In this document: positions 43,428 to 63,213 of the stretch, one piece after another
Layout: each line of letters opens with the position of its first letter
Numbering within the stretch: position 1 is the stretch's first letter
IMG/VR virus record: IMGVR_UViG_3300030333_002703
Span: 46,062 to 110,061 of that record
Length of the DNA stretch: 64,000 nt
Strand: one strand, 5' to 3'
DNA from: a virus
Notes under the pieces: generated by a model
Told to the model about the DNA's origin: nothing
The model's input: the letters and a program-made list of their open reading frames with translations, nothing else
The model's database searches: none
Position numbers and translations under genes: made by a program

Positions 43428-43619
43428 TTATTCCTCCGCTTCTACTCTTTCTTTTGTACCTAGTTTGTACACATATGTTGGTCTATCTATGACCCGCATA
43501 TAGCCACAATGGATTACCTGCCCATTGATGTAAATGTTGTGTGAATGAGAAGATGTTCTTTTCTTCATCCCACATCCAGAACATTGCCTAAGCGCCATCC
43601 GGTCTGCACTACGTGACAT
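43428..43619 (-). CDS. Small Zn-finger protein
   Basis: CSGC...H...HCG, TAATG coupling. Confidence 0.5.
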   Translation of the reverse strand: MSRSADRMALRQCSGCGMKKRTSSHSHNIYINGQVIHCGYMRVIDRPTYVYKLGTKERVEAEE

Positions 43620-44014
43620 TACGAACCCCACTCCTTGAGTGACCGCTGACGGTTCACATCATCGTAGATTTCGTCAATGATTGCTTGTGCTTCGGACTGG
43701 AACGCACCTCCTAGATTCATTATGCTTGATGTACTGATTGGCTTTGATTTAACCACATCATGTATCTCATCCTCCGTGATGAGTCCATCTTCAATGGCCT
43801 CGGCGGGTGTTCGGGTCACTGCCGCCGTGCTTTTTCTCAACACTAGTGTGTCACCATCGAATGCGTCGATGCAATCCTGACAGATGGGTAACGACAATGC
43901 AAACTTGAAGTCTGGGTCTTTGGGCCAATTGGGGTCAGATGGTGCGCCGCACCAATTCACTGATGCAGTGTGTGGCCCCTTGGTGATGTGTATGACCTTT
44001 GGTAAGTCCGACAC
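43619..44014 (-). CDS. Hypothetical protein with SIMNLGG and a C-terminal PIP-like motif
   Basis: H...WCG...CQDC zinc motif, ends RQRSLKEWGS. Confidence 0.6.
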   Translation of the reverse strand: MSDLPKVIHITKGPHTASVNWCGAPSDPNWPKDPDFKFALSLPICQDCIDAFDGDTLVLRKSTAAVTRTPAEAIEDGLITEDEIHDVVKSKPISTSSIMNLGGAFQSEAQAIIDEIYDDVNRQRSLKEWGS

Positions 44015-44239
44015 TCATTCACCCGGCCTGTGCTTCTCACGCTTGCTTAGCATATTCTCCAACACCTTGAGTATGTTCGCACTCGCTGTCTTGAATCGCT
44101 TCTCGGCGTGTTCACAATCGAACACCCCCAAGTTACGTGCAAGGTCGTCTAGACCTTCAAACTTCATGTATCCATTCTCACCGTTGATGAGATAGTTTAG
44201 TATCTCCCACTCGGCGTGTCCTACTGATTTTGCTTTCAT
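44015..44239 (-). CDS. Hypothetical protein
   Basis: 74 aa, GGAGG SD. Confidence 0.55.
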   Translation of the reverse strand: MKAKSVGHAEWEILNYLINGENGYMKFEGLDDLARNLGVFDCEHAEKRFKTASANILKVLENMLSKREKHRPGE

Positions 44240-44241
44240 GT

Positions 44242-44331
44242 TTATGCCTCCTTATATTCCCAGAACTCCCAGATGGGTTCTCCGGTTTCCTCGTCAATGG
44301 GGCCGCGTAGATGGCTGAATAGTTTAGCCAT
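44242..44331 (-). CDS. 29-aa microprotein
   Basis: MAKLFSHLRGPIDEETGEPIWEFWEYKEA exactly fills the gap. Confidence 0.4.
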   Translation of the reverse strand: MAKLFSHLRGPIDEETGEPIWEFWEYKEA

Positions 44332-45391
44332 CTAGCAGCACCCCACGTAATTGATTGAGTGTAGTTTCACCGTCACAGTATGCGACGATTGCTGCTTCAA
44401 TTTCATTGAGTCGCGCCATCAAGTCATCACGGTCTTTTTCAGCCCGTTTAACTCGCTCGTGTGCTTCCTCTATACCACTTTCGCGGGCTGCGGGTATGTA
44501 CTGGACTCCATCAATCCACACACCTTCAGTTTCAGGCCACAACGTCTTGTATTCAGGTTCCGGTGTTGGTTCTTCCATCAATTCATCCACTGCTTCTACA
44601 ATGTCTGGTTCATCAAGACCGACCACAACCTCATTTGTGAATGTTGGTGGTTCCTCCGATGTCAGAATGGTAAGTTCACCCTTGTGTTTGAGGTCTTGCA
44701 GACGCTTGATGAAATCACCTGATGTTTCATCATCCTCTCTCTCAATCCCCAACTCTTTGGCTGTCGCTCTAAGCGCTGTGCGCTCTTTATGTTGAGCGAT
44801 TCTGGAACGTCGGAATTGCATTTGTGGTTGTGCCTGATTCCGTTCTTTACCTTTCTCTACCTCTTGTTCCCATTTGATGTCTGACTTCTCTACATGAACT
44901 GCATCATCCGGTGCATGATTCTTACAGTACCACTTACCATCTTCAGTTCGATGTGAGATGTATAGAGTGGATGCGTCATTATGACCAACCTTACATCGCT
45001 CACCATTTTTTGTAGTACCATGACATTGACCACGGCTCTCAAGCCGTCGCATAGACACAAGTTGTGTTTGCCAGTATCCTGAATTGTTCACCAATGCAAA
45101 ATTGGTTGGCTTACCAGTCGTCACCACTTGTAGTGCGCCGTGTCCAAGTAGAAGTTGAATGGCCTTGCGTACTTGGTCGTAACCAACATCAATGCCATCT
45201 GCCATCTGCTGTTGTGTAGCACAGTGGGCTTTGAAGCCCAGTTGTGGCACATGGACAAATGGTCGTTTGTCGAACATGAATCTGAAAATCTGTTCAGCGC
45301 GTCTATGTGTCATACCTTTACACTTATCCATTTCTTCTTCAGTGAGTGGTCGATAGATACTGTCTTTCCCATCCGTCGGACCCTTACTCAT
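44324..45391 (-). CDS. Winged-HTH plus Zn-finger protein
   Basis: TQQQMADGIDVGYDQVRKAIQLLLGHGAL HTH, CHGTTKNGERC...YCKNH Zn finger. Confidence 0.65.
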   Translation of the reverse strand: MSKGPTDGKDSIYRPLTEEEMDKCKGMTHRRAEQIFRFMFDKRPFVHVPQLGFKAHCATQQQMADGIDVGYDQVRKAIQLLLGHGALQVVTTGKPTNFALVNNSGYWQTQLVSMRRLESRGQCHGTTKNGERCKVGHNDASTLYISHRTEDGKWYCKNHAPDDAVHVEKSDIKWEQEVEKGKERNQAQPQMQFRRSRIAQHKERTALRATAKELGIEREDDETSGDFIKRLQDLKHKGELTILTSEEPPTFTNEVVVGLDEPDIVEAVDELMEEPTPEPEYKTLWPETEGVWIDGVQYIPAARESGIEEAHERVKRAEKDRDDLMARLNEIEAAIVAYCDGETTLNQLRGVLLDG

Positions 45392-45395
45392 AGTA

Positions 45396-45899
45396 TCACA
45401 CCCGTCGCTGTTCTAGTGCAACAATAGCGGCTCGCATTTGATTACCGCTAATTTCACCATCCATGTATGACTCAATGGCTGATACAAGATAGAAGATTTC
45501 TTCTTCCAGCATCATAACGCGCTCTGCCAACTTCGCTGGGAACCCCGCGAACATCGTTGTTGATGTCGCCTTGCTGAAGTCACTGTTGGGGAATACCTGT
45601 GTGGTTAATTCACCAATAGATTGTTCTTCATGGGGTTCCACTGGTTCATCCGTTGGGAATGGGAAAACAGGGAACAGACGTGCGCCACGTCTATTGCCAG
45701 CCTTCTCTACCAGTCCGTCTTCGATGAGACATCTCTCGGCAGTTTCACGGTATCCGTTTGGAACACCGAGGGCTTCGTTGTAAAAGCCCAATCGCTCACC
45801 GGGTGTCTCTCTAACGATGTTTAGAAGTTTCATAGCGCGCTGTCGCACTGCCTTCCGTCGTCGTCGTCCATTTGCATTTTTAGTTCTTACTTCGTGCAT
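45396..45899 (-). CDS. Winged-HTH protein sharing a C-terminal domain with its neighbour
   Basis: IVRETPG...LIEDGLVEKAGNRRGARLF. SD AGGAG before ATG 45899. Confidence 0.6.
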   Translation of the reverse strand: MHEVRTKNANGRRRRKAVRQRAMKLLNIVRETPGERLGFYNEALGVPNGYRETAERCLIEDGLVEKAGNRRGARLFPVFPFPTDEPVEPHEEQSIGELTTQVFPNSDFSKATSTTMFAGFPAKLAERVMMLEEEIFYLVSAIESYMDGEISGNQMRAAIVALEQRRV

Positions 45900-45941
45900 T
45901 TTTATCTCTCCTTTATTTTGTTTGTATCCGTTAGGAATTGG

Positions 45942-45997
45942 TGGGGGGTAGGGTGCGTTGCTTGGGATGCATGACGGTAGTAAATCCCTACCCCCCA
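45942..45997. other. Intergenic stem-loop
   Basis: TGGGGGGTAGGG / CCCTACCCCCCA perfect 12-bp stem. Confidence 0.7.
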
Positions 45998-46005
45998 TGA
46001 ATTGC

Positions 46006-47661
46006 TCATATATTCAAGACCTCACTGGCCTTTGGAATGCTGTTGAGCGCAGACATCCCTTCTTCGTTCACGAATGCCTTCAGGTCATTCAAGTCTGTGG
46101 TTCCAATCTTATCCACACCAGATGATTCTTTGTAATCTCCCACGGTCTGGTATAGTACACCAGTCATGACATTGTGGACTGTGGATAGACGACGGTTGAG
46201 TGTTTCCAACCCAATCGTGCGACCCTTCAAGACAGTCTTGCCATCAGACCATTCTGGCTTGTGTGTGATTGCACCGTTCAATACATTGTAAGCATGGAAC
46301 AGTGTGTTACTCTGGTCACGGTTCACTGCAACCCAATCATTGCTGGGCTTTGTCCAACCATCAAGAGCAAGTCGCCACATATACCCACCAGTCAATTTTT
46401 CACTAACAACCTTGTCATTCTTGATGACCGGCTTCTTGTTGGGCCATCCAATGAGGCCACGTGTCTCACACAGTGTGAGTAGTCGTTCAAACAATTGAAC
46501 ATCCACTGGAAGGTGTTGCATGAACTCCATCTCGACAAGTGAACGCTGTGCATCTACAATCACTGAATTGATGTCACTAGCAAATGCATCCCAATCACGG
46601 TCTTTCATAGCACCCTGCTTGTGTCGAATAGATGCAATGGTTCTGACACCACCCATCACTGCCAAGTTTTGACAGTACACACGTTCTGCTACGGCTTGGA
46701 CAGACAGTGCTTTTGTGCCATCCAGTGAGTTGTTGATGCTGAATCCATATCGGTATAGACCGTCAAGTGATTTGGCGGTATCATTCATCAGATTAAGACT
46801 GATAAATCCGTGACCATTTTCACTCAATCGTTGTCGTGCTTTTTCCCGAGTCTGGGCTGCTTGTGATACATCACAGTCAAGACGCATCTTTGCACCTTCG
46901 TTGTGTGCATAGACACGTGCCTTCCAATCATTCTTAGATGCCATATCCAAGATGGGGTCACACACTGTGGGATATGATAGGGGGAAGTAATCCTTACCGA
47001 CCACACCAAGACACGCACCTTCAGGTCTATCTGATGATGCATATGATGGGTTGAAGATTGCGAAGTGCTTTGCGTTGCCTTTAGCATCAGTCACTGGTGA
47101 GAACGTAGGAGCCATCTCCTCCGATTCTTGATGTGCTGTGAACACCGGCTTCATCACTGGGGTGAATCGCCAATCGTGAGCAATCAAACCTTCACGACCA
47201 CCGGCTAGGATACTGCCATCCCATACCTCATCACTAACTTCCACTGCACCAGCAGTAGTAGGGACTTCATCATCCCAATCTTCATCTCCACCATCATTGT
47301 TCGGTGAGCCACCTAAATCCATGATGCTTGCTTTCTTTGCTTTCTGCATTGCTTTGATGTTGGCTGATGCCACACCCTGTTCTAATGCATCTACCAATTC
47401 GATGTGTTCCGGCTCTACTACGAGCGGTGCTTTGTTGCCACCGAAATGGGCTGATGGGTGATAATCTCCATGCTTCAGGGATGCACTCTCAACAAGGAAT
47501 GCAGATTGCCCATCACTTGTTTTGTGCTGTTGGGCAATTGCTCCTTTTGGAATCCATACTGACCGAGGACCACTGACCGCTTCATAACGAACTTTCGTTT
47601 GTTTGTCGTTGGTTTCCTCAACATGACCGATAACCACAATTTTGGTATTTTCATTTGTCAT
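46006..47661 (-). CDS. DUF932-family protein with N-terminal extension
   Basis: LGVVGKDY, NSLDGT..L...RVYCQN, IRH, TLFHAYN...ITH. Confidence 0.7.
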   Translation of the reverse strand: MTNENTKIVVIGHVEETNDKQTKVRYEAVSGPRSVWIPKGAIAQQHKTSDGQSAFLVESASLKHGDYHPSAHFGGNKAPLVVEPEHIELVDALEQGVASANIKAMQKAKKASIMDLGGSPNNDGGDEDWDDEVPTTAGAVEVSDEVWDGSILAGGREGLIAHDWRFTPVMKPVFTAHQESEEMAPTFSPVTDAKGNAKHFAIFNPSYASSDRPEGACLGVVGKDYFPLSYPTVCDPILDMASKNDWKARVYAHNEGAKMRLDCDVSQAAQTREKARQRLSENGHGFISLNLMNDTAKSLDGLYRYGFSINNSLDGTKALSVQAVAERVYCQNLAVMGGVRTIASIRHKQGAMKDRDWDAFASDINSVIVDAQRSLVEMEFMQHLPVDVQLFERLLTLCETRGLIGWPNKKPVIKNDKVVSEKLTGGYMWRLALDGWTKPSNDWVAVNRDQSNTLFHAYNVLNGAITHKPEWSDGKTVLKGRTIGLETLNRRLSTVHNVMTGVLYQTVGDYKESSGVDKIGTTDLNDLKAFVNEEGMSALNSIPKASEVLNI

Positions 47662-47672
47662 AATGCCATACT

Positions 47673-47704
47673 CCACCAATGGTGGAATGGGAGGAGGATA
47701 TAAA
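47673..47704 (-). promoter_or_regulatory. Conserved viral promoter, copy 3
   Basis: CCACCAATGGTGG-AATGGGA-GGAGGATATAAA. Confidence 0.85.
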
Positions 47705-47733
47705 GGGCGGCCAACATTTTGGTGGTTTAACCG

Positions 47734-48465
47734 TCATTCTTCTTCATCATTGGTGTATTCGGAACGCACACAGTATGTTCCTTGCATATGAGGAGGAACA
47801 TCTACTGGTCCTAATGTACTACCCAGTGCCACACCTTTTCCTCCAGAATCAATCAAAGCAGTACACTCTTCTCTAGGAAGAACGCGGTACTGAATCGTAG
47901 TATTGGGTACTCTCCATGTATAGAACAGGTCCTCACCTGCTATGTATCCGTAATCTAGAGGGTTCATAGGTATAGTTTGACTACATTTGTGACAACATAC
48001 CTCGGCAACCCATCGGTCGGATTCACCTACCTCGCCCGATTCAGGGTCAGTAAAACTATGTAGGCCTAGATTTAACCATGTAGTTTGTTCAAGTGGCATA
48101 TTGACTAGAGGTTCAGCGCAATCTTCGTCAGGGCAAACCCATGACGATACTATCTCTTGTATCCGTTGTAGTTCTGCTTCCTGATTGGCTGCTATGTCTT
48201 CTGGTGTAGGTTGATTGACAATACGTTCGACACTATCATCATCCATAGTCCATCCCATGTGTTCGGTCAGGACTTTACTCACGCGAGCGTGGGCCTCCGC
48301 CACACCCTCGTGATTCACCATAGTAACAAGGCGAATTGCCTTGTCACCTGTTTTTTCATATTCTAGGCCATGAGGCGACCATACGCCCCCAACCTTGAGT
48401 GGCTCAAGATTTGTACGAGTCCACTCGATTTCATCGTCTGCTGGTTCCCAGTCTGTTTCATTCAC
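47734..48465 (-). CDS. Hypothetical Zn-finger protein
   Basis: 243 aa, CPDEDC...CHKC. Confidence 0.6.
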   Translation of the reverse strand: MNETDWEPADDEIEWTRTNLEPLKVGGVWSPHGLEYEKTGDKAIRLVTMVNHEGVAEAHARVSKVLTEHMGWTMDDDSVERIVNQPTPEDIAANQEAELQRIQEIVSSWVCPDEDCAEPLVNMPLEQTTWLNLGLHSFTDPESGEVGESDRWVAEVCCHKCSQTIPMNPLDYGYIAGEDLFYTWRVPNTTIQYRVLPREECTALIDSGGKGVALGSTLGPVDVPPHMQGTYCVRSEYTNDEEE

Positions 48466-48812
48466 GCTGCTCCCTCGGAGAACGAGTCGGACATATCAGC
48501 CCATACCCATTCATCCGTCACGGAACACGGATAGACAATAAACGTGCCGACGGCAAAGACAGGTCTCATACCGTCAATAGATGACCCACAACAAGGGCAT
48601 ACATCCCAGACTTCAATGGCCTTCCGTATGGCAATCACTTGTAGTGATTCATCATCATTGGGTGGCGGGGGCCGGAGTTCGACACCCAGCATAGAATGTC
48701 GAACCCCGTCGAACCCCCAGTTCCCGTCATCATCCACGTCTGATGGGGTGACAGACCAGTTGAATCTGGCCCCATCGGATGACTTGTGCTTACCCATCCC
48801 CATCACTTCCAC
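48462..48812 (-). CDS. Hypothetical Zn-finger protein
   Basis: CPCCG...PC, ATGA-coupled. Confidence 0.5.
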   Translation of the reverse strand: MEVMGMGKHKSSDGARFNWSVTPSDVDDDGNWGFDGVRHSMLGVELRPPPPNDDESLQVIAIRKAIEVWDVCPCCGSSIDGMRPVFAVGTFIVYPCSVTDEWVWADMSDSFSEGAA

Positions 48813-48981
48813 CTCACCGGAGGGGTCGTGCGCTTATGGGCCTCACTCTTCACCGTCACTCATTGACGATGTTGAGTTGAGGGCTTCCTTGATGGCGTTA
48901 ATCTCGTAACCGAGATTGATTTGCACTTCATCAATTGCGTCGTTCATTTCGTTTCGTGCATCTTGCACGGCTTGCTTCAGT

Positions 48982-49617
48982 TCATTCAGTTGTTGTTGCA
49001 TTTTCAATCACTTCCTGTTCCACTAGGTATTGGTCAACTATATCCTGCATGATTCTTACATCTGCGGTTGCGACCATATGTGGAATTGCTTTCATCTGGA
49101 TGAGTGTATCACCCTTCTGATTCTTCACTGTCATTTGACGGAACTCACCAAGTATCCTTTCAAGTTCTTCGGGATGCTTTGCGTGTTCATCTATCCAGTG
49201 TTGGTATGTTGCCTTGTCATTTGAAAGACGCAGTATGTTTGCTTCGCTCATTGCTTCTGCAATCTCCCGCATCACTGCTTGGGTGATTCGACCACCCAGC
49301 ATACCTGCTATCTTATCCAACAAGATTGCCACCTTCAAAGTCGGTGGGACTCGTTGGGGATTGGATTGTTCATAGTCAGGATACCTGACATATCCATCCC
49401 CCTTTGTTTTGCCACCACTGTGTGGTATTGGCTTGAGTAGGATTGTTGCACCAGTGTCCATATCCACAACCATGAGTCGTGGGCTGGCGCGTGTTTCTAT
49501 TGTAGTATCTGATGATTCATATTCTGTATTCATCAGGGCATCACCCAGTGCGCGTAGTGTCTTACCCGCGCCGGGTGTCCAGTTCATCTGTTTTGCTTGT
49601 TCACATTCTAAAGTCAT
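48982..49617 (-). CDS. Hypothetical protein
   Basis: 211-aa coupled ORF. Confidence 0.6.
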   Translation of the reverse strand: MTLECEQAKQMNWTPGAGKTLRALGDALMNTEYESSDTTIETRASPRLMVVDMDTGATILLKPIPHSGGKTKGDGYVRYPDYEQSNPQRVPPTLKVAILLDKIAGMLGGRITQAVMREIAEAMSEANILRLSNDKATYQHWIDEHAKHPEELERILGEFRQMTVKNQKGDTLIQMKAIPHMVATADVRIMQDIVDQYLVEQEVIENATTTE

Positions 49618-50162
49618 TGTATCAAATCCATTATGCTTAGTGGTTTCTTAGGTGCTTGCCACTTATCCATATCGAACCAACCGGGTCGTAGAGTATGTTT
49701 CCACTCGACTGGCATGATTGTGGCTTTGTAGTGGTAGTAGTCACGATATGCTTTGACAGCATCATCGTTTTTGTACTCGTCAGGCATGGCTTGTGCGAAT
49801 GGTGTCAACTCACCATCAGGTATCATATCAGCCATATCATTCATCTGTATGATACCAGTTTCACAGAAGTGTCTTTTGCCATACCGTTTGTTGAAATGTA
49901 GGCATAGACCAATAGCATGGTCAGCGGCCCATTGGAAATTGGCACGACTGTCACCAACCCATCGGGTGCATGGGTGGTTAGGGTAGCCACCTTTGAGTGG
50001 CGTACCTTTCTGTGTTAATGGCATCTGTTCATCAGTTGCCCCATGACGACGTAACGCCGAACCCAGTTGTTGTAGTAACTCTACACACATCTTGGGTAGG
50101 TGTTTGTCGCAGTGCATTTGCGCGGCCCATAGTGGGCGTTCATCTAAGATAAATATGTTCAT
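49614..50162 (-). CDS. Pyrimidine-dimer DNA glycosylase (DenV-like) family protein
   Basis: MNIFILD...HCDKH..KM..E..Q.L, HPCTRW, TPFAQAMPDEYK..DAVKAYRDYY. Confidence 0.75.
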   Translation of the reverse strand: MNIFILDERPLWAAQMHCDKHLPKMCVELLQQLGSALRRHGATDEQMPLTQKGTPLKGGYPNHPCTRWVGDSRANFQWAADHAIGLCLHFNKRYGKRHFCETGIIQMNDMADMIPDGELTPFAQAMPDEYKNDDAVKAYRDYYHYKATIMPVEWKHTLRPGWFDMDKWQAPKKPLSIMDLIQ

Positions 50163-50181
50163 TGTATCACCGTATAAATTG

Positions 50182-50368: not shown

Positions 50369-50374
50369 TGAGTA

Positions 50375-51415
50375 TCACTCCAAATCCATAATGGATTTTG
50401 TATCTGTTTCTGGTTCAGGCAACCAAGGGAACCGTCGTGAACCGTAGTCCAAATACTCGACTCCTTCTTTGTATTGCTCGGTCATCTTTGCTATGACTTC
50501 TCGTTGTTCTTCAATGGTGGTCACGAACTCATCATACCACGTTGCTAGGTCTGTCAACTCATCATCCGTTATGCGTAGGTCGTTCATTGTATTCCAATAC
50601 AATCCAAGAGATTTCAAAACCACGGTCTTATCTTCATCGCTTAGTTTGCATGAGTCTGTCCATTCGATACGAATGTCACCAAGTCCGATACCATCACCTA
50701 CTGCGTATGGGTTACAGTCAATCCATTCAATGACATTGTGGTAGTTGTACACTGCTTGTGGGAAGTTCTTGGTTACACGACCACCGGCCTTGAGTAGTAG
50801 ATATGCTTTGATGTCATTCATGCTTCTCTTGGTATCCACCATAGTATTCGCTGGGTTTGGTTGGAACAAAGACTTTTCAAAGTTCATAACTCTGGTGCGT
50901 CGTTGTTGTTCCAATTGTTCCTCAACAGCAAACGGAGATACCTTACCTGCATCCATGTAGATTTTATCCAATCCGAACTCACCATACTTCAAAGCGAAAC
51001 TATTTTGTCTGTAACCTTCGACAGAACGTCTGATTACTTCCGGTAGTTTGTATGTACCAGCAAGGTATGCATCCCACTGTGCTTGTGGGTCATCCCACAA
51101 CAAGTTGTTATGCATCAGTTGATTGACAAAGTTGTATCGTCGTCTACCCATTATATCGTGTAACTCATCTGCACATTTCTTGCATAGACAACTGTTGCCC
51201 CACTTGACGGATACCTTGCTTGAGCATTGGTTCCCCCCATAATTACTGTATCGTCTACGTGTACGAATTGCTAGACATCTCTTGTCGGCGGATAATTTCT
51301 CCACCGTGTCTTGCTTGTACACTTGCTTTCCTGTATCATCCGTCTCCCAACGCTGGTTAGTCTGTTGGGTGATTGGTTGGCTGCTGTCTCTTGTTGTAAA
51401 TCCTGTCATTGGCAT
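50375..51415 (-). CDS. Hypothetical protein ending in KSIMDLE
   Basis: 346 aa with an N-terminal Cys cluster, preceded by a conserved promoter. Confidence 0.65.
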   Translation of the reverse strand: MPMTGFTTRDSSQPITQQTNQRWETDDTGKQVYKQDTVEKLSADKRCLAIRTRRRYSNYGGNQCSSKVSVKWGNSCLCKKCADELHDIMGRRRYNFVNQLMHNNLLWDDPQAQWDAYLAGTYKLPEVIRRSVEGYRQNSFALKYGEFGLDKIYMDAGKVSPFAVEEQLEQQRRTRVMNFEKSLFQPNPANTMVDTKRSMNDIKAYLLLKAGGRVTKNFPQAVYNYHNVIEWIDCNPYAVGDGIGLGDIRIEWTDSCKLSDEDKTVVLKSLGLYWNTMNDLRITDDELTDLATWYDEFVTTIEEQREVIAKMTEQYKEGVEYLDYGSRRFPWLPEPETDTKSIMDLE

Positions 51416-55358: not shown

Positions 55359-55366
55359 TGTATCAA

Positions 55367-55398: not shown

Positions 55399-55428
55399 TC
55401 CGGTTCATTTCCATTCGTGTATGTGTAT

Positions 55429-56324: not shown

Positions 56325-56656
56325 TTGGTCGCCTCCTTGTCATCGTCTTTCTGTTCAAGCCATGCTTGAAACTCCTCATGTATTTTGTTCATCTCACGGA
56401 TGGCTTCTAGTTCATTCCTCACGATGTCAGCGATAATCCTAATCACTGTTGCCTCGTGTGGTTGGTCACGTTCAGCAAAGTCAATTGCCACGTCACCGTT
56501 TTCCAATAGGTCACAAATCTCTAGCATATAGCGTTCAAAGTCACCTAAACTTTCTTCATATTCATTCATTTTCATTCTCTCCTTATATTTGTTGTATTCA
56601 TTGATGTCCACTGACATCTTAATGCCGGTCTTGGTCATAGGAATACACCTACCCAT
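56321..56656 (-). CDS. Hypothetical protein
   Basis: Helical ORF, start uncertain. Confidence 0.5.
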   Translation of the reverse strand: MGRCIPMTKTGIKMSVDINEYNKYKERMKMNEYEESLGDFERYMLEICDLLENGDVAIDFAERDQPHEATVIRIIADIVRNELEAIREMNKIHEEFQAWLEQKDDDKEATK

Positions 56657-56733
56657 TTCAAAAATCGAATCAATCGACCCGGCATTCCCTCTGTATCATA
56701 TCCATTCCATTCATCATCATCCATTGTGTTCAA

Positions 56734-56768
56734 CCACCAACGGTGGTGTAACGTGAGGAGGATATAAA
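56734..56768 (-). promoter_or_regulatory. Conserved viral promoter, copy 6
   Basis: CCACCAACGGTGG-N10-GGAGGATATAAA. Confidence 0.8.
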
Positions 56769-56777
56769 AGACCGAAA

Positions 56778-57026
56778 TTATTCGTCACGGCCCAATACTT
56801 CATCACTGGTTACGTGTAAATCTCCTAACACCCAGCGTAGCGCGTTAATCACGCCTTGAAGTGCTTTGTAATTTCTCATGTGCTTTATCTTCAACTTCTT
56901 ACTCTTGGCTCGTTGCATGAGCATGAAGTGCTTATTCTGCTCACGTTCAGCCGCATCTAGCATATTTAGAATATCATTCCAGTCCTTATCGTAGGCAAAG
57001 TTCTCACTATCTTGGTGGTCATTCAT
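56778..57026 (-). CDS. Hypothetical helical protein
   Basis: 82 aa, RNYKALQGVINALRWVLG, GGAG SD. Confidence 0.6.
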   Translation of the reverse strand: MNDHQDSENFAYDKDWNDILNMLDAAEREQNKHFMLMQRAKSKKLKIKHMRNYKALQGVINALRWVLGDLHVTSDEVLGRDE

Positions 57027-57140
57027 TCTTATCTCTCCTATTACGTCTGTACATCAGGTATAGCACAGTTGTCCAGAAGCCTAGTTCAAGTAGGCTCGCA
57101 ATTGCGCCTCCCATCAACAAGGTTGATGATAGTTCCCCTG

Positions 57141-57521
57141 TCATGCTCGCCACACCTGCGGTAGATATTCACCTGTCGTAGGTTGGTAGTGCTGTAGTAT
57201 GAGTGTCAGGTATGCTCCAGTATCTTCCACATACTGCTTCACTCTTGCTGTGTGTTGCATATCATCCCATTCCCTAATGAATGCTATAGTCATCGGGGTG
57301 AACCCCTCAACGTATAGTTCCATGTGTGGTTCCCAATGCTCATAGAGCCACGCCTGACATATGCTACGCATCCAACTGTAGTCAGACATCTTATCATCAG
57401 GTATTGTGTTGGCACGTTGCTGTCCCTTTGCATTCGTCTTCCTGATGAAGTTAACCCCGTCTTCAGGGAACACTATGTGTTCCGCAGGTGATGGGTGTCT
57501 TCCAAACAATGCTATCTTCAT
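57141..57521 (-). CDS. Hypothetical protein
   Basis: 126 aa, GGAGG SD, coupled. Confidence 0.6.
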   Translation of the reverse strand: MKIALFGRHPSPAEHIVFPEDGVNFIRKTNAKGQQRANTIPDDKMSDYSWMRSICQAWLYEHWEPHMELYVEGFTPMTIAFIREWDDMQHTARVKQYVEDTGAYLTLILQHYQPTTGEYLPQVWRA

Positions 57522-57706
57522 GCCTTAATCCTCCTTCGTGTGTATAGTCGTAATGCAAGGCGGGGTGGGTCAGAACTTAAGTTCACAATTTTGAACTCAT
57601 AGTCATCACCGAAGTGCCGCTCTAGCATACCCTTCATGATGTTGTGTCCTACACGAGCATGAGGACCAAGGCCTGTATCCATTTTCTCCCAACCTTCCAA
57701 ATCCAT
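57518..57706 (-). CDS. Hypothetical protein
   Basis: 62 aa, coupled at both ends. Confidence 0.5.
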   Translation of the reverse strand: MDLEGWEKMDTGLGPHARVGHNIMKGMLERHFGDDYEFKIVNLSSDPPRLALRLYTRRRIKA

Positions 57707-58260
57707 TAGGCCTCACCTACGTGTATAGCATAAGTGGTTCGACCCACTTGGTATGTGTAGTAGTCCATCTCTAGTTGTTGTCCGACCCAATCCCAATCAA
57801 TCGTGCTGGTAATCCAACTAGGCAATGCGTTAAGTTCTGTGTAGTAAATGTCCTCGCACATCTCCTGCGCCCACTCACTACGACAGTCGTATGATACCAT
57901 AGCATCTCTCACCTGCATGATGCGGTCAGCATCATAGCATCCACCACTAAATGAATGCAGCAAGGCTGCAGCATATACGTACTCCTCATCCTCATCAACC
58001 AATCGCATGAGTTCAATCAAGTCCCAGATGTCTGGGTTTTCACCCAGCACTAGACCATGCATATCATAGTCATGGATGGCCCACTCATCGTGGTCATCAT
58101 GTGGGCATAGGATTCTCTTGCCATCGTCATCGGACCAGTCATGGTCCCATGCTACTTCTAATTCATCGGCGGTCATCCACTGACCATTCAACTTCCCTTC
58201 GACATAGCATGACAGACACGCTACATACACTCTACTCTCTTTCATTTCATTCTTCATCAT
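57706..58260 (-). CDS. ardA: ArdA-family antirestriction (DNA mimic) protein
   Basis: RVYVACLSCY..GKLNGQW, EWAIHDYD, LGE, IDW..VG..LEMD, acidic composition. Confidence 0.85.
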   Translation of the reverse strand: MMKNEMKESRVYVACLSCYVEGKLNGQWMTADELEVAWDHDWSDDDGKRILCPHDDHDEWAIHDYDMHGLVLGENPDIWDLIELMRLVDEDEEYVYAAALLHSFSGGCYDADRIMQVRDAMVSYDCRSEWAQEMCEDIYYTELNALPSWITSTIDWDWVGQQLEMDYYTYQVGRTTYAIHVGEA

Positions 58261-58471
58261 CGTTCATCACCTCTACAAAATAGTCAACTTGTTTTACTGG
58301 GCATTCTTTTTCACACGCATAACGCATGATAACCATATCAGTTAAATGCATACACCAGTCAACCAATCTCATTGGCGCATCACATACACTACAACAGACG
58401 AATGGTTCGCCTCTCGATAGTATGTAATGTGCATTGTCTAGTATCTCAACCTCTTCATGTTCTTCCATCAT
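58247..58471 (-). CDS. Small Zn-finger protein
   Basis: CSVC...CEKEC. Confidence 0.5.
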   Translation of the reverse strand: MMEEHEEVEILDNAHYILSRGEPFVCCSVCDAPMRLVDWCMHLTDMVIMRYACEKECPVKQVDYFVEVMNDDEE

Positions 58472-58693
58472 TCATTCCTCCTTTACGTTTGGTTTCACTA
58501 TACATTCGTACACTGTCTCATAGGTTGGTACGTCGTCGTCATCCACATACCATACTTCAGTTCCATTCAAGTCAGCGCCTCCGCTATCCAATTGATAGAA
58601 TCCCCATACATCGTTGCCGTTGTTGTCAGGGTCTTGACCATACACAACTTCGACTACCATTTCATCATAGTAGTATACTGCTCTTCGCATCAT
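58472..58693 (-). CDS. Small acidic protein
   Basis: 73 aa, GGAGG SD. Confidence 0.5.
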   Translation of the reverse strand: MMRRAVYYYDEMVVEVVYGQDPDNNGNDVWGFYQLDSGGADLNGTEVWYVDDDDVPTYETVYECIVKPNVKEE

Positions 58694-58848
58694 TCATTCC
58701 TCCTGTATTGTTTTCCTCAAGAACTTCAACACTATAGTTGCTGTTGGTATCCTTCCCGATTGTTCAATGATATTATCCAACGCCCACTTGATTTCTTTTT
58801 CCGTGTAACTATAGTTCGGGTTCAATTCGGGCCATTCATATTTAGCCA

Positions 58849-61218
58849 TCATTCATTCCTCCATCCATTGTCGGCCTTGAGTCGTGCCAGTAGGTCAGCG
58901 ACAATCGCTCCTTCGGCACGGCGTTCATCGTCACCATCCATCGCCGCCTTGACGACAGCGGCCTTGGCCTTGACCACTGCATCGAACTTGGCATCAATAG
59001 AGTTCGGTACGGATAGGAATACCTGACGACAGAAGGATGACTGTTGTCCGATACGTCGAATCCGATGTGCTGCTTGTGATTCCCAACCGGGAACCCACTC
59101 ACGCTCCACGAATACTACAGTGTCTGCATTGGTCAGTGTGATACCTTCCTTCGCCGCCACTGTTGCACATAGTAGTATGTCGATGTCACCGTTTTGGAAC
59201 TCATCAACAATTCGTGTGCGTTCTTGTGCTGATACTCCACCACGAATGATACCATAAGTCACATCAGTTAGATGTGGTATCATGGCCTCCATCACATCTC
59301 TATGATGAGTGAACACCACAATCTGTTTGCCAGTTTGTTGCACGTAATCAAGAACATAGTTCGCTGCGAATGTCGTCTTCAAACGACCACACTCATGGCG
59401 TAGGTCTGTCAGCATATTGAGAACGAATCCCGGTGGCATGGGTGGATGGTCAAGGTAGTACTCATACTGTTCCTGCCATTGGTGCAAACATTCCTGATAG
59501 GAATGCCATGCGTTGTCATCCAATTCCACTGGAACATACTGTTCCACAAGGTCTGGCATCTCCGGCATCACCTCGGTTAGCAACCGACGAACCATGAAGT
59601 CACGCGCTCGCTCATTCAATTCAGATAGATTGGATGCACCATCAGTCTTCCAACCGAATCGTGTTTGCTTTGCATCACAGTATCGCTTAGCATACGACCA
59701 CCAATTACTGAATTGGTGTGGTCGCAACAGATTCAACTGTGTAAAGAACTCCGCAGGTCGATTGGTGATTGGTGTTCCCGTCAAACAAATCAGTCCTTTG
59801 GACTGCTGTGCCACAGCAATACACGCCTCGGTTCGTTGTGCCTTGGGGTTCTTGATGTAGTGTGATTCATCCATGATGACAAGATTGTATCCTTCGGATA
59901 ACAGTTCGTCTTGTTTCTTCGCCATCAAATCATAATTGATTACAGTGTAATCAGCACCTTCCAATTCGGACTTGCCATTCTTGACCACACATACAGATGC
60001 ATCTGGAACCCACTTGTTAATCTCATTGGCCCAATTGTATTTGACATTGGCAGGTGCTACCACCAACACTGGCCACTGTTCAGGATGCAACACACTGTAT
60101 GCTATCGCTTGGATTGTCTTACCAATCCCCATCTCATCACCAATCATGGCACGACCATTCGCTGCTTCACAGAATGCTACGCCCACATACTGGAATGGAT
60201 ACAGTGACAAACCATCAGGGAACTTCCCATCCAATCGTTCAACGATTGAGTCCACCATTTCCTCCGGTGCTGATGCTGCTTGGGACAGGGTAACACGTTC
60301 TATAGACATATCCAATTCACTGGCAATCTCTGGAATCCGTAGGATTGCATCGGACAATTCCTTGCAGTGTGGTCGAATGAAATCAGCAACACGAGCCGCT
60401 TGAGATAGTGGCACACGCCATACCTTCTGTTCCATATCGAACTTCCAATTATCAACCTGCTTGATAGCCGCACGGATGTCAGCATTGTTATTTCGGAACG
60501 GCCAATGCAGTTCCACTGCATCAATGTTCAGTGTTGCTTTGTATCGTGAGTCAATCTTGGCCTCGGTATCATTTGTAAGTGTTGTCTTACTTGTGTCATC
60601 AACAATAGATGCGATGGTGTCATCCAACATCAAGGTGTGAGTGAAGTCAATGTCATACTCCTTGAGTATGGCAACGGTTTGTTCGATGACCTCCGGTTTG
60701 TCTTGGATGCTCCATGCACCAGACAAGTCATCGCCACCTGTCCATCCGCTAATCTTATCCTGCGAATCGAACTTGACCGCAGGGAATCCCAAGGTCTCGC
60801 GCAACTTGTTGTTTGCCTCTTGGTCAAACCAACCAAGCAAAGCGATGCGAGGTCCGAAGTTATCTTCGTATCGAATCACTGACAACTTCAATGCTTGTCG
60901 TGTAGCCCACATGATTTTGGCATTCACCTTGAACCCATTGGCATCACCAATGGATGGTAGTTGTGTCTCCGCGAACTTGTATAGAATGTAGGCGGCCTGC
61001 TTCGCATCCTCCTTTGTAAGCACATCCTTACTTGCCAAGTCGTTGCCTTGTTCCCATGTATCTTTACACCATCCGGTGTCATCATGCTGGGTAGGCGCAC
61101 CAAGACCTGACATCACTTTGCATAGTGTATGCAACTGGTCATTCGTCAATGGTGCGACAACCTCATCTTCAATATCTTTATCATTTGTATTCATGTTTAT
61201 CCAACTCATTTCTTTCAC
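58849..61218 (-). CDS. SNF2-family (HARP/SMARCAL1-like) helicase
   Basis: LYPFQ, GDEMGIGKT, MDESH, LTGTP, EGITLT, QAAHRIRRIGQ. Confidence 0.92.
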   Translation of the reverse strand: MKEMSWINMNTNDKDIEDEVVAPLTNDQLHTLCKVMSGLGAPTQHDDTGWCKDTWEQGNDLASKDVLTKEDAKQAAYILYKFAETQLPSIGDANGFKVNAKIMWATRQALKLSVIRYEDNFGPRIALLGWFDQEANNKLRETLGFPAVKFDSQDKISGWTGGDDLSGAWSIQDKPEVIEQTVAILKEYDIDFTHTLMLDDTIASIVDDTSKTTLTNDTEAKIDSRYKATLNIDAVELHWPFRNNNADIRAAIKQVDNWKFDMEQKVWRVPLSQAARVADFIRPHCKELSDAILRIPEIASELDMSIERVTLSQAASAPEEMVDSIVERLDGKFPDGLSLYPFQYVGVAFCEAANGRAMIGDEMGIGKTIQAIAYSVLHPEQWPVLVVAPANVKYNWANEINKWVPDASVCVVKNGKSELEGADYTVINYDLMAKKQDELLSEGYNLVIMDESHYIKNPKAQRTEACIAVAQQSKGLICLTGTPITNRPAEFFTQLNLLRPHQFSNWWSYAKRYCDAKQTRFGWKTDGASNLSELNERARDFMVRRLLTEVMPEMPDLVEQYVPVELDDNAWHSYQECLHQWQEQYEYYLDHPPMPPGFVLNMLTDLRHECGRLKTTFAANYVLDYVQQTGKQIVVFTHHRDVMEAMIPHLTDVTYGIIRGGVSAQERTRIVDEFQNGDIDILLCATVAAKEGITLTNADTVVFVEREWVPGWESQAAHRIRRIGQQSSFCRQVFLSVPNSIDAKFDAVVKAKAAVVKAAMDGDDERRAEGAIVADLLARLKADNGWRNE

Positions 61219-61526
61219 GCTCCTAGTAATGACATAATTCCACCAGTTCTGGTGGGTGGCTTGTCATCGGTAGCCACTGGTGCTGTCCAATCCATGATTG
61301 ATACAGACTTTTTCTTTGGTGCAACAACCTTTGGTTGTGGTACGAACCCAACCTCATCCAATGTCAATTGAATCATACAGTCATTCCAACTGCAACGCTG
61401 ACTTGTGCAATTCACTAGCACTTCGTATCGACCACGAGTCCAATTGTGGTTGGCTCCCCAATCTTGAAGGATACGATTGACGGTTTTCGGCCCACCGCAT
61501 CCTGAACATTTCGGTATATCAAACAT
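61215..61526 (-). CDS. Zn-finger protein with SIMDW motif
   Basis: CSGC...CTSQRC. ATG 61526 sits at the predicted leaderless start of a conserved promoter. Confidence 0.6.
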   Translation of the reverse strand: MFDIPKCSGCGGPKTVNRILQDWGANHNWTRGRYEVLVNCTSQRCSWNDCMIQLTLDEVGFVPQPKVVAPKKKSVSIMDWTAPVATDDKPPTRTGGIMSLLGA

Positions 61527-61557
61527 CAACGAAGTTGATAATGAAGGAGTATATGAA
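61526..61557 (-). promoter_or_regulatory. Conserved viral promoter, copy 7
   Basis: TCAACGAAGTTGA-N7-GGAGTATATGAA. Confidence 0.8.
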
Positions 61558-61689
61558 TCGGCCATCATTTCAACACCACCACTTGATGTATGCACATGGA
61601 ACAGTCATAGATTATGTTGTCATCATACCATGATACGGGAGACATCTCACCCCCACATTCGCACACCAAAAGTTGGACTCTTCGCGCAC

Positions 61690-61956
61690 TCATTCAACCA
61701 CCTCCAACTTATCCACTAATGCAATCTCAATGTAATCAGCCAATCCATCACCGCAGTATTCTATGTCAGACTTACGGTAACATTGAATCACATAGTCTTG
61801 AAGGTGATAATTCCATGCGACAATACCTTTCCACAAACGTGGGTTATCGTAGAAACGATACTGAACTATGTCACCCTCTTTGATACCCCATGCTCGCATG
61901 GCTGCTCTTGTTAATCCTGTTTGAACTTCCAATGCTTTGCGACCCATCTTACTCAT
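61690..61956 (-). CDS. Hypothetical protein (SH3/KOW-like beta pattern)
   Basis: IKEGDIVQY...KGIV. Confidence 0.5.
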   Translation of the reverse strand: MSKMGRKALEVQTGLTRAAMRAWGIKEGDIVQYRFYDNPRLWKGIVAWNYHLQDYVIQCYRKSDIEYCGDGLADYIEIALVDKLEVVE

Positions 61957-62058
61957 CTCCTAAACACCTCTTGCATATTCCAATTGTATAGTATGGTTCA
62001 AGTTGAAAGTGAATGTATTGACGACACTTCCTACAACCAGTATGTGAATCATACTGAT

Positions 62059-62385
62059 TCATTTCCATCCACCTCTTAGTGCATTGTTCTCAATGATTAA
62101 CCGTTCCAATGCCTTGCCATACTGTTCCATAGCATATGCAATTGTGCCTAGTCCCACCATGTTATCGAGGGATACTGGTCCTTGCCAGTGCAAATGCGGT
62201 TCATCACTTACTAGTTGCACCACGTTGGCCCATTGTTCGATTTCATCGACCACCATGCTAAAGTGTGGTACACCTGTCTGCATATTCAATTCGTCATCCA
62301 CAGTATGTGGGATACCATTGTCATGTTCCCATAGAACTGTTTCGCTTAGGTCTTGCTGTTCGTTTGTTTCGTTTTCGTTTGTCAT
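62059..62385 (-). CDS. Hypothetical protein
   Basis: ATGA-coupled, GGAG SD. Confidence 0.55.
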   Translation of the reverse strand: MTNENETNEQQDLSETVLWEHDNGIPHTVDDELNMQTGVPHFSMVVDEIEQWANVVQLVSDEPHLHWQGPVSLDNMVGLGTIAYAMEQYGKALERLIIENNALRGGWK

Positions 62386-62609
62386 ATATTCAACTCCTTT
62401 TCTTTCTTTGCCCATTCTTCTACTGCGGGTCCACCGTCTTCAAACTCCTCCAATGTTAATCCAACAGGCAAACCCTTTCTCCAACACCAAAGTACATGAT
62501 GGCGTTGTCTAATCTTTAGACCGGGTTGGCATTCGGAGCATTCACAATGCTCAACTGATTGCTCAACCCATTCATCACTAAGTTCTTCGGCCCAAATCTC
62601 ATCATCCAT
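62382..62609 (-). CDS. Small Cys/His protein
   Basis: HCECSEC...C. Confidence 0.5.
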   Translation of the reverse strand: MDDEIWAEELSDEWVEQSVEHCECSECQPGLKIRQRHHVLWCWRKGLPVGLTLEEFEDGGPAVEEWAKKEKELNI

Positions 62610-62611
62610 AT

Positions 62612-62842
62612 TTATTCCTCCTCATCTACGATGTTTACTTGTTCTGGGGTCAGGTCATCGTGGTCCCAATCAGTATCCCAGAAATCTTCAGCCATACATA
62701 CAGCACGAACTACGTCCATTTTGTTACCTGTTCGTTGGTATTCATCCCATACTTTCTTAGGAATAGTAGCACCAATCTGTTGGTATGCATATGAACTAAC
62801 ATCTATAGACACGGCAACCATGTCGTTGTTATCCTTACTCAT
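62612..62842 (-). CDS. Small acidic protein
   Basis: 76 aa, TAATG coupling. Confidence 0.55.
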   Translation of the reverse strand: MSKDNNDMVAVSIDVSSYAYQQIGATIPKKVWDEYQRTGNKMDVVRAVCMAEDFWDTDWDHDDLTPEQVNIVDEEE

Positions 62843-63213
62843 TATTCATCACCACCTAGGTCCATGATGGAACGGGGTGCATTGGAAATGCTACCACCAA
62901 GGTCCATGATAGAACGAACAGTTTCGGTAGCAATGTCTGGCTTGATGTCAAACAAATGTCGCCATTTCATGTAGGCAGGTCGTTGCTGTTCATTTACCAA
63001 GTTTCCATTATGTGTGTGTTCCTTCCAAAGGAAGATGTTGTGTCGGTTTTCACCACCACGGCCACCAGTTCTTTTGCATCCTTGCCAAAGGTATCTGGTG
63101 ATGTTCTGTCCGATATGAATGATGGGTTCACCATCACAGTCATTCCAGCAATCACATGGGGGTCTGTCGGCTTTCGGTTTTCGTTGTCGGTATCGTTGTT
63201 GTTTTCGGGGCAT
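62842..63213 (-). CDS. First gene of the minus arm, carries tandem SIMDLGG motifs
   Basis: ATG 63213 follows a conserved promoter. Ends RSIMDLGGSISNAPRSIMDLGGDE. Confidence 0.65.
   Translation of the reverse strand: MPRKQQRYRQRKPKADRPPCDCWNDCDGEPIIHIGQNITRYLWQGCKRTGGRGGENRHNIFLWKEHTHNGNLVNEQQRPAYMKWRHLFDIKPDIATETVRSIMDLGGSISNAPRSIMDLGGDE

What the first reader, a model, noticed from the sequence alone, without database searches (positions are those of the whole stretch)
43619..63213. Shared short linear motif SIM[DN][LW](GG) in six unrelated early proteins: a viral docking tag
Seen: SIMNLGG (43712-43726), KASIMDLGG (47314-47328, linker of the DUF932 protein), PLSIMDLIQ-stop (49623-49637, DenV-like), TKSIMDLE-stop (50381-50395), SVSIMDW plus GIMSLLGA-stop (61287-61301), and RSIMDLGG twice in tandem (62857-62871, 62899-62913). 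Ser codons differ (AGC, TCC, TCA, TCT), so selection acts on the peptide and not the DNA. The motif lies in tails or linkers, mostly after basic residues. Known analogies: the human LIG1 PIP box QRSIMSFF, and the shared clamp-binding tails of T4 gp43/gp33/gp55. Inference: a common hub (viral clamp, host PCNA, protease/chaperone, or a packaging or localisation receptor) recruits diverse early proteins through one tag. This is the best candidate for an undescribed system in the window.
Basis: partly seen in the sequence, partly recalled or inferred. Interest (0 to 1): 0.88.

Follow-up and report, generated by a model that had tools for sequence, protein, structure and literature searches.

The report
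Shared docking peptide in magrovirus proteins
Six otherwise dissimilar proteins of this marine archaeal virus carry the same five-residue peptide (SIMDL) in floppy tails or linkers. Related viruses carry a different but equivalent peptide at the same places, so the peptide very probably plugs many proteins into one common partner, which is still unidentified.

Summary
SIM[DN][LW] occurs 7 times in 6 minus-strand ORFs between 43.7 and 62.9 kb, and in no other reading frame of the 64 kb. Shuffled proteins give 0.02 occurrences. Synonymous codons differ between copies, so selection acts on the peptide.

The window is a group-A magrovirus, a tailed virus of Poseidoniales archaea. It encodes TFB, a thermosome subunit, PolB, RFC, an SNF2 helicase and a PCNA-fold clamp.

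The main new result comes from relatives. They lack SIMDL, but at the orthologous sites each carries its own enriched variant: LP[DNS]LF(GG), KP[DN]LF, K[SN]LFD or L[ED]D[WF]. Relatives at 86-87% identity show SILDL, TILDL and SVMDL there. The site is therefore conserved while the peptide changes in concert within each genome. This is the signature of a docking motif that follows one partner.

In relatives the carriers include a pyrimidine-dimer glycosylase, the SNF2 helicase N-terminus and a ligase-containing polyprotein in the head module.

The partner is unresolved. The viral sliding clamp is the leading candidate, because the motif looks like a Q-less PIP box. However, PolB and the RFC proteins lack the motif, and putative clamp pocket segments look conserved. 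The single complex prediction gave no answer.

An earlier first-reader note of this scan reports five more SIMDL copies upstream in the same genome.

The parts
43712..43726 (-). SIMNL(GG), internal copy in protein A (ORF 43619-44014, 131 aa, Cys-rich, no family hit)
   Evidence: Orthologue in G001 has PLPDLFGG at the same place. L027 has GILAL.
47314..47328 (-). SIMDL(GG) in the variable linker between the N-terminal domain and the DUF932 domain (ORF 46006-47661)
   Evidence: Orthologues carry KPDLFGF, TPDLFSL, SLLDDFM, GGLFSIA, PPELFGG, SILDLGG and GFMNLGG at this linker.
49623..49637 (-). SIMDL(IQ-stop), C-terminal tail of a pyrimidine-dimer glycosylase family protein (ORF 49614-50162)
   Evidence: Orthologue tails are KPDLFTGLNA, LPNLWALA, KLEDWI, VNLFAF and TILDLIP. 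Wider homologues mostly end at P.WW or carry other tails.
50381..50395 (-). SIMDL(E-stop), C-terminal tail of protein D (ORF 50375-51415, 346 aa, no family hit)
   Evidence: Orthologue tails are KPNLFGDE, LPDILG and SVMDLE.
61287..61301 (-). SIMDW in the tail of protein E, a Cys-rich small protein directly upstream of the SNF2 helicase (ORF 61215-61568)
   Evidence: The positional orthologue in G001 carries three copies: LPSLF, KPDLFGG and LPNLF-stop.
61227..61241 (-). GIMSL(LGA-stop), a degenerate extra copy at the C-terminus of protein E
62899..62913 (-). First of two tandem RSIMDLGG copies in the tail of protein F (ORF 62842-63306)
   Evidence: The G001 orthologue (E 5e-6) ends with two copies of its own variant, LPNLF...LPSLW-stop.
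62857..62871 (-). Second tandem RSIMDLGG copy, followed by DE-stop, overlapping the next gene's ribosome-binding site
35538..36314 (-). Virus-encoded PCNA-fold sliding clamp (258 aa), the leading but unproven candidate hub
   Evidence: AF2 model with mean pLDDT 88.4 and pTM 0.85. Foldseek top hits are P. furiosus PCNA, TM 0.68-0.72, E 8e-14. Net charge -11.
38930..39883 (-). RFC-type clamp-loader ATPase. It shows the virus runs its own clamp system.
   Evidence: Pfam AAA 5e-16, DNA_pol3_delta2 1e-11, Rad17.
33268..35532 (-). Family-B DNA polymerase. It lacks the motif and ends in a different tail (HRPKKLW; HQPKTYW, FKPKGYW or YQPKAYW in relatives) that is similar in all six genomes.

Best explanation
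SIMDL is this virus lineage's version of a short linear docking motif used throughout group-A magroviruses. The core is a small polar residue, two hydrophobic residues (IM here; LF, IF or LW in relatives), then Asp/Gly and a further hydrophobic residue or Gly-Gly. It usually follows Lys, Arg or Pro and sits in unstructured tails or linkers. Each carrier uses it to bind the same pocket on one hub protein. Because all copies serve one pocket, they drift together, so each virus lineage ends up with its own homogeneous version. The most likely hub is the virus-encoded PCNA-like sliding clamp, with the motif acting as a Q-less PIP-box or clamp-binding tail. It would bring a UV-damage glycosylase, an SNF2 helicase module, a ligase module and small Zn-ribbon-like proteins to clamp-loaded viral DNA. 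Shown: the enrichment, selection at the peptide level, positional conservation with concerted sequence change, and the PCNA fold of the viral clamp. Inferred: that a single hub exists, and that it is the clamp.
For: Enrichment is 7 observed against 0.02 expected, found only in the coding frames, with synonymous codon variation. At the orthologous sites of six carrier proteins, relatives have their own motif, and each genome's pattern is enriched only in that genome: 16 vs 0.46, 5 vs 0, and 7 vs 0.19. At 86-87% identity the core changes only conservatively (SILDL, TILDL, SVMDL) while the flanks drift. The motifs lie at extreme termini or in indel-rich linkers, and some proteins carry 2-3 copies. 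PCNA partners usually carry their motif at an extreme terminus (PMC3504372). Confirmed PCNA motifs are very diverse, lie in disordered regions and are strengthened by basic flanks (PMC6881253). Sulfolobus PolB1 binds PCNA2 through QLTLF, close to the relatives' LP[DNS]LF (PMC3504372). The virus encodes a PCNA-fold clamp with net charge -11 plus RFC. Carriers in the window or relatives include a PF03013 glycosylase, the SNF2 N-terminus, and linkers just upstream of an ATP-dependent ligase domain.
Against: PolB, the RFC-like proteins, the primase, and the ERCC4 and Cas4-like nucleases lack the motif. PolB has a different tail that stays similar across genomes (HRPKKLW here; HQPKTYW, FKPKGYW or YQPKAYW in relatives). 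Clamp segments that should form the peptide pocket are largely conserved among genomes whose motifs differ strongly, although the window's interdomain loop does differ. C-terminal flanks are often acidic, which disfavours binding to human PCNA (PMC6881253). Several carriers have no known function, so the enrichment for DNA enzymes rests on few proteins. No binding evidence of any kind was obtained.
Confidence: 0.4

Rival explanations
1. It is the same kind of docking motif, but the hub is not the clamp. The hub would be another viral replication protein (PolB, the RadA-like ATPase, an SSB or RPA-like protein), a fast-evolving viral protein of unknown function, or a lineage-specific host factor.
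For: The motif is genome-specific, whereas the clamp's putative pocket segments and PolB's own tail are conserved. Acidic stretches often follow the motif (LPDLFGNDDDEEE, KSLFDYASDDDDEE), which suits a basic binding surface better than an acidic clamp. From memory, not tested: the relatives' NLFD/SLFD resembles the LFDE module of BRC repeats that binds RAD51, and T7 helicase and SSB use acidic tails ending in Phe to bind the polymerase.
Against: No specific candidate is supported by any test here. Hubs known to take a dozen different clients through one short tail in DNA metabolism are chiefly clamps.
Confidence: 0.3
2. It is a virion-targeting or cargo-loading peptide. The motif would dock proteins to the inside of the procapsid (coat, scaffold or portal), as encapsulin cargo-loading peptides do, so that repair and other enzymes are packaged and delivered with the DNA.
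For: In relatives the motif occurs in large polyproteins encoded between the portal and the head maturation protease and major head protein, one with a ligase domain and one with a SLOG domain. An earlier unchecked note of this scan reports five SIMDL copies in the head-side proteins of this same genome.
Against: Most carriers in the window lie in the replication and early block. A second motif (D.AW..LK) that is conserved between genomes marks the head-side proteins and is the better candidate for capsid targeting. Capsid proteins are conserved, which fits poorly with a genome-specific motif.
Confidence: 0.1
3. It is a degradation or processing signal: a degron recognised by a protease or unfoldase, or a cleavage site such as LxGG.
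For: Many copies are C-terminal, like C-degrons. The relatives' DLFGG fits LxGG.
Against: The window's MDLGG does not fit LxGG. Copies that end the protein (LPNLF-stop, PSLW-stop, SIMDLE-stop) cannot be cleavage sites. Internal linker copies are odd for a C-degron.
Confidence: 0.05
4. It is not a protein feature at all: either chance, or a DNA-level element (promoter, ribosome-binding site or repeat) that happens to translate to SIMDL.
For: The motif contains ATG, and some C-terminal copies lie just upstream of the next gene's start.
Against: Expected count is 0.02 against 7 observed. Synonymous positions vary. Internal copies have no downstream start. Orthologues replace the motif by a different peptide, not by a related DNA word.
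Confidence: 0.01

Closest known systems
PIP box (PCNA-interacting peptide, Q-x-x-[ILM]-x-x-[FYW]-[FYW]) of archaea and eukaryotes
   Same: A short peptide at termini or in disordered linkers, with an aliphatic residue followed three positions later by a hydrophobic residue (I..L/W) and Asp before it, as in p21 SMTDFY, and with basic N-terminal flanks. Many unrelated DNA enzymes carry it. LIG1's QRSIMSFF shares RSIM (p21 and LIG1 sequences from memory).
   Different: There is no Gln. The second aromatic position is Gly, Ile, Glu or Thr. In relatives the best-conserved residue is Phe at the position that is variable in PIP boxes. PolB and the RFC-like proteins of the virus do not carry it. The motif differs between related viruses, whereas PIP boxes are stable across domains of life.
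Bacterial-type clamp-binding motif QL[SD]LF, also used by Sulfolobus PolB1 (QLTLF) on PCNA2 (PMC3504372)
   Same: The relatives' LP[DNS]LF, KP[DN]LF and K[SN]LF share the [DNS]-L-F end, and some copies are C-terminal.
   Different: The window's own version has Met-Asp-Leu instead of Leu-Phe. Pro or Lys replaces Gln-Leu.
Clamp-binding C-terminal tails of T4/RB69 gp43, gp33 and gp55 (from memory; could not be checked in the paper library)
   Same: A virus-encoded clamp serves as hub for several unrelated viral proteins through similar short hydrophobic tails. The RB69 polymerase tail as I recall it (KKASLFDMF...) is very close to KKASIMDLGG and KPKSLFDYGG.
   Different: In T4 the polymerase itself carries the tail, whereas here it does not. 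There are about a dozen carriers per genome here, including internal and multi-copy sites.
Encapsulin cargo-loading peptides and phage capsid-targeting sequences
   Same: One short peptide is shared by unrelated proteins of a virus with an HK97-type head module. Some carriers are encoded in the head module.
   Different: Most carriers in the window are replication-block proteins. A separate conserved tag (D.AW..LK) exists on the head-side proteins.

Membership tests
Canonical PIP box | Gln at position 1 | tested here: not met
   Position 1 is K, P, T, S, V or P in the seven copies.
Canonical PIP box | Aliphatic residue (I/L/M) at position 4 | tested here: met
   Ile in all seven copies. I or V in close relatives.
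Canonical PIP box | Two aromatic residues at positions 7 and 8 | tested here: not met
   Position 7 is L (six copies) or W (one). Position 8 is G, I, E or T.
Canonical PIP box | Located at a terminus or in a disordered segment | tested here: met
   Two copies (the glycosylase and protein D tails) lie within 7 residues of the C-terminus, and four (SIMDW and GIMSL of protein E, both copies of protein F) lie within the last 30 residues. The other two are internal: one in an indel-rich, non-conserved linker (DUF932 protein) and one in a variable segment of protein A. No disorder predictor was run.
Canonical PIP box | Binds the hydrophobic pocket between the interdomain loop and the C-terminus of PCNA | not testable with these tools
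   This needs binding assays or a broader modelling screen.
Clamp-binding motif QL[SD]LF | Q-L-[SD]-L-F pentapeptide | tested here: not met
   The window has S-I-M-D-L. Relatives have [LK]-P-[DNS]-L-F, which shares only the last three positions.
SUMO-interacting-motif-like beta-strand addition motif (psi-psi-x-psi with acidic or Ser flanks) | Hydrophobic core V/I-V/I-x-V/I/L with acidic flank, and a ubiquitin-like partner | tested here: inconclusive
   I-M-D-L fits the core and acidic stretches follow several copies. No ubiquitin-like protein turned up among the roughly 35 window proteins that were scanned. The host could not be examined.
Capsid-targeting or cargo-loading peptide | Carriers are found inside virions, and the peptide binds the coat or scaffold | not testable with these tools
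   Only gene position is available. Some carriers in relatives are encoded between the portal and the protease/major head protein.

The most novel reading that the evidence does not exclude
The motif is a virus-lineage-specific 'address code' read by a hub that is not the clamp. Each magrovirus lineage would mark a dozen of its proteins, both packaged enzymes and early proteins, with its own private peptide. A fast-evolving viral receptor, or a host factor that differs between Poseidoniales lineages, would recognise it, for example to gather the proteins at a replication compartment or to tell own from foreign proteins during co-infection. Concerted turnover of a whole SLiM network between closely related viruses would then be an evolutionary arms-race signature that has not been described for archaeal viruses.
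Probability: 0.2. Interest if true: 0.85.

Novelty: new variant of a known kind. Interest (0 to 1): 0.62.

Why it matters
Magroviruses are among the most abundant viruses of the surface ocean. They are uncultivated and most of their genes have no known function. A shared docking peptide provides a handle for experiments, because one synthetic peptide could pull out the central hub of the infection. The motif also groups about a dozen unannotated proteins into one functional network. The concerted replacement of the motif across a whole genome (SIMDL, LPDLF, KPDLF, KSLFD, LEDW) is an unusually clean natural example of a short-linear-motif network co-evolving with its reader. If the hub is the viral clamp, this would extend the T4-style 'clamp as viral hub' principle to archaeal viruses, with repair and chromatin-remodelling-type clients.

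Tried and rejected
**Complex prediction**
- One job was run: the viral clamp (19-row alignment) with residues 96-135 of the DUF932 protein. The verdict was 'no answer' with score 0.00, and the controls were not run. This counts neither for nor against binding.

**Searches that found nothing**
- A profile of 28 motif instances against PDB sequences gave no hit at E up to 10.
- Literature look-ups of the RB69 and P. furiosus RFC-L clamp peptides as I recall them gave no usable hit, so those resemblances stay memory-based.
- The magrovirus papers read do not mention the motif.
- The atlas search for protein D gave no usable hit.
- PHROGs and Pfam on proteins A, D, E, F and the conserved unknown replication proteins gave no hits.
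- The 'phages' collection holds no magrovirus. The best PolB match is a halovirus at 22% identity.

**Routes that were closed**
- Comparing the motif with the host's own PIP boxes failed. No genome is held for the window, and both genome-contig scans with the thermosome found nothing.

**Method that failed**
- Exact 4-mer enrichment recovered SIMD and IMDL in the window but missed the degenerate variants of relatives.

**Ideas rejected**
- A DNA-level element, because of the codon variation.
- An LxGG-type cleavage site, because the register is wrong in the window and some copies end the protein.
- The apparent N-terminal SLMFDI of protein E, which is probably upstream promoter or leader sequence read through. 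The same PPSLM translation precedes two G001 genes.
Full report
**1. The observation**

A six-frame scan finds SIM[DN][LW] seven times. All seven are on the minus strand, inside long ORFs, at exactly the coordinates given. The looser pattern IM[DN][LW] has no further hit in any frame, and every hit is preceded by Ser. The DNA under the seven copies differs at synonymous positions: Ser AGC/TCC/TCA/TCT, Ile ATA/ATC/ATT, Asp GAT/GAC, Leu TTA/TTG/CTA/CTT. Shuffling residues within each called protein gives a mean of 0.02 occurrences against 7 observed, and 0 of 200 shuffles reach 7. The motif is therefore real and is selected as a peptide. An eighth, degenerate copy (GIMSL) ends protein E.

**2. 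The setting**

The window is a tailed archaeal virus. It encodes the following:
- TFB (22782-23711)
- a thermosome subunit (23873-25438)
- an ERCC4 nuclease
- a DNA methylase
- an archaeo-eukaryotic primase
- a Cas4-like nuclease
- PolB (33268-35532)
- an RFC ATPase (38930-39883)
- an SNF2 helicase (58849-61209)
- a 6002-aa ORF

This gene set, in particular thermosome plus SNF2, matches group-A magroviruses of Marine Group II (Poseidoniales) archaea as described in PMC5434244. The ORF next to PolB (35538-36314, 258 aa) has no family hit by sequence. It folds with mean pLDDT 88 into a two-domain clamp, and its best structural matches are Pyrococcus and Thermococcus PCNA with TM 0.68-0.72. The virus therefore has its own clamp and clamp loader.

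The six carriers are:

| Protein | ORF | Description |
|---|---|---|
| A | 43619-44014 | small, Cys-rich, no family hit |
| DUF932 protein | 46006-47661 | motif in an inter-domain linker |
| Glycosylase | 49614-50162 | PF03013 pyrimidine-dimer glycosylase family; 7 of 7 orthologues hit the family |
| D | 50375-51415 | 346 aa, no family hit |
| E | 61215-61568 | small, Cys-rich, directly upstream of SNF2 |
| F | 62842-63306 | small, Cys-rich, two tandem copies |

**3. Relatives**

Nine IMG/VR loci and six metagenome loci encode the DUF932 protein at 59-87% identity. One complete 110-kb relative (G001) and three large fragments (G002, G004, G005) were fetched whole or nearly so, together with G003. 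Those at 59-68% identity contain no SIMDL.

At the orthologous sites they carry other short hydrophobic peptides:

| Site | Window | Relatives |
|---|---|---|
| DUF932 linker | KKASIMDLGG | TKPDLFGFG, NTPDLFSLS, STSLLDDFMM, TGGLFSIANGG, PPELFGG |
| Glycosylase tail | PLSIMDLIQ | EKPDLFTGLNA, GLPNLWALA, IKLEDWI, RVNLFAF |
| Protein D tail | TKSIMDLE | SKPNLFGDE, ELPDILG |
| Protein A | SSIMNLGG | PLPDLFGG |
| Protein F (two copies in both genomes) | RSIMDLGG...RSIMDLGG | LPNLF...LPSLW |
| Protein E tail | SIMDW and GIMSL | three LF copies in the G001 positional orthologue |

Within each genome the copies are alike:

| Genome | Pattern | Observed | Proteins | Expected |
|---|---|---|---|---|
| G001 | [LMKT]P[DNS][LI][FW] | 16 | 10 | 0.46 |
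| G002 | KP[DN][LI]F | 5 | 5 | about 0 |
| G004 | [KRT][SN]LF[DSA] | 7 | 6 | 0.19 |

Each pattern is essentially absent from the other genomes. These patterns were defined after looking at the data, so the numbers are descriptive.

In the two closest relatives (86-87% identity) the same sites read SILDL, TILDL, SVMDL, GFMNL and GILAL, while the flanking residues have drifted. Aligning all variants gives a common core: a small polar residue, then an aliphatic residue, then F/M/L/W, then D/G/S/A, then a hydrophobic residue or Gly.

**4. What this means**

The site is conserved across at least six protein families. The peptide is homogeneous within a genome and differs between genomes. Chance, composition and DNA-level repeats do not explain this, given the synonymous variation in G001 as well. 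Many ligands tracking one binding pocket is the simplest explanation.

The wider glycosylase family shows that the tail is an add-on. Of 120 homologues, only the two closest carry SIMDL or TILDL. Many end right after the conserved P.WW, and a large group has another tail, GVEVTA-stop.

**5. Which hub?**

Evidence for the viral clamp:
- The motif reads as a PIP-box core without Gln (S-I-M-D-L against p21 S-M-T-D-F-Y and LIG1 S-I-M-S-F-F, both from memory).
- The relatives' [DNS]-L-F end matches the QL[SD]LF/QLTLF type that Sulfolobus PolB1 uses on PCNA2 (PMC3504372).
- PCNA motifs are typically terminal or in disordered regions, are very diverse, and are helped by basic flanks (PMC3504372, PMC6881253).
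- The viral clamp is acidic, with net charge -11.
- Known carriers are DNA enzymes: the glycosylase, the SNF2 helicase N-terminus in G001 and G004, and linkers just upstream of an ATP-dependent ligase domain inside a large polyprotein in G001 and G004.

Evidence against the clamp:
- PolB, the RFC-like proteins, the primase and the nucleases lack the motif.
- PolB instead ends in a tail that stays similar in all six genomes: HRPKKLW here, and HQPKTYW, FKPKGYW or YQPKAYW in the relatives.
- Clamp segments expected to line the pocket are mostly conserved between genomes with very different motifs, although the window's interdomain loop is unusual.
- Acidic stretches often follow the motif, which disfavours binding to human PCNA (PMC6881253).

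The single complex prediction allowed returned no verdict and is not used. I therefore put the clamp at about 0.4, another replication-associated or host hub at about 0.3, and virion targeting at about 0.1.

The virion-targeting reading draws on the ligase and SLOG polyproteins that carry the motif in relatives. These are encoded between the portal and the head protease/major head protein. An earlier unchecked note reports five SIMDL copies in the head-side part of this genome. However, a second, inter-genome-conserved tag (D.AW..LK) marks those proteins and is the better capsid-targeting candidate.

**6. Novelty**

No paper in the library that I searched mentions such a motif in magroviruses. 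A shared docking tail on diverse viral proteins is a known principle (PIP boxes; T4 clamp tails). What is new is this motif family, its spread over about a dozen proteins per genome in an uncultivated archaeal virus group, and above all its concerted, lineage-specific turnover. I rate it a new variant of a known kind, with a real chance (about 0.2) that the hub is something unexpected.

**7. Limits**

- No genome is held for the window.
- Host genomes could not be reached.
- No binding evidence exists.
- Gene calls are my own simple ORF calls.
- The motif patterns in relatives were defined post hoc.

Noticed in passing
window 42000-63300, minus strand gene ends: 20 of 49 minus-strand ORFs end in Glu, often ...EEE, DEE or NE. 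The stop usually forms ATGA with the next gene's start and follows a purine-rich GAGGAGGAA-type ribosome-binding site. The acidic tails look like a by-product of translational coupling, not a protein signal.
   Followed up: partly
window 47230-47290 (DUF932 protein, residues about 125-135): A second short motif, [ED]D[WF]DD[ETS]V(M)P, lies about 12 residues downstream of SIMDL in the same linker. Unlike SIMDL, it is conserved in all orthologues (D128, D130, D131, V133, P134 invariant). It may be a separate docking site for a conserved partner.
   Followed up: no
window 33268-33300 (PolB C-terminus): PolB ends in HRPKKLW here, and in HQPKTYW, FKPKGYW or YQPKAYW in the five relatives. This conserved basic-aromatic C-terminal tail may be the polymerase's own clamp contact. 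A DVLDW segment 20 residues upstream resembles the motif but is conserved between genomes, so it is probably structural.
   Followed up: partly
L011:3242-4840 (G001 103242-104840), L021:2939-6220 (G004), and other head-side ORFs of relatives: A different shared peptide, (G)EPMD[IL]AW..LK, recurs at the N-termini and at internal boundaries of several head-side proteins and polyproteins. It is conserved between genomes and is sometimes followed within 2-4 residues by the LF-type motif. It matches the tag reported by earlier notes on this genome.
   Followed up: partly
P0022-P0139 (homologues of window 49614-50162): A large group of PF03013 glycosylase homologues from marine metagenomes ends in ...PDWW[QR]GVEVTA-stop, and others end at WW. 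One is labelled as a Poseidoniales MAG protein. The EVTA tail could be another lineage's docking tail.
   Followed up: no
L008:17595-19265 (G001 thermosome): The G001 thermosome subunit has a roughly 50-residue C-terminal extension with a CxxC...CPQC zinc-ribbon-like segment. The window's copy lacks it.
   Followed up: no
L010:15732-16115 and L010:17296-17649 (G001); window 61540-61595: The translated leaders of two G001 genes both read PPSLMV just before the probable start Met. The window's protein E reads TSLMFDI there. This is probably a shared promoter or leader DNA element read through by the long-ORF call, not part of the protein motif.
   Followed up: partly
window 1191-19199 (+): A single 6002-aa ORF with an orthologue of 5980 aa in G001 (48% identity) lies at the end of the structural block. 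Its function is unknown.
   Followed up: no
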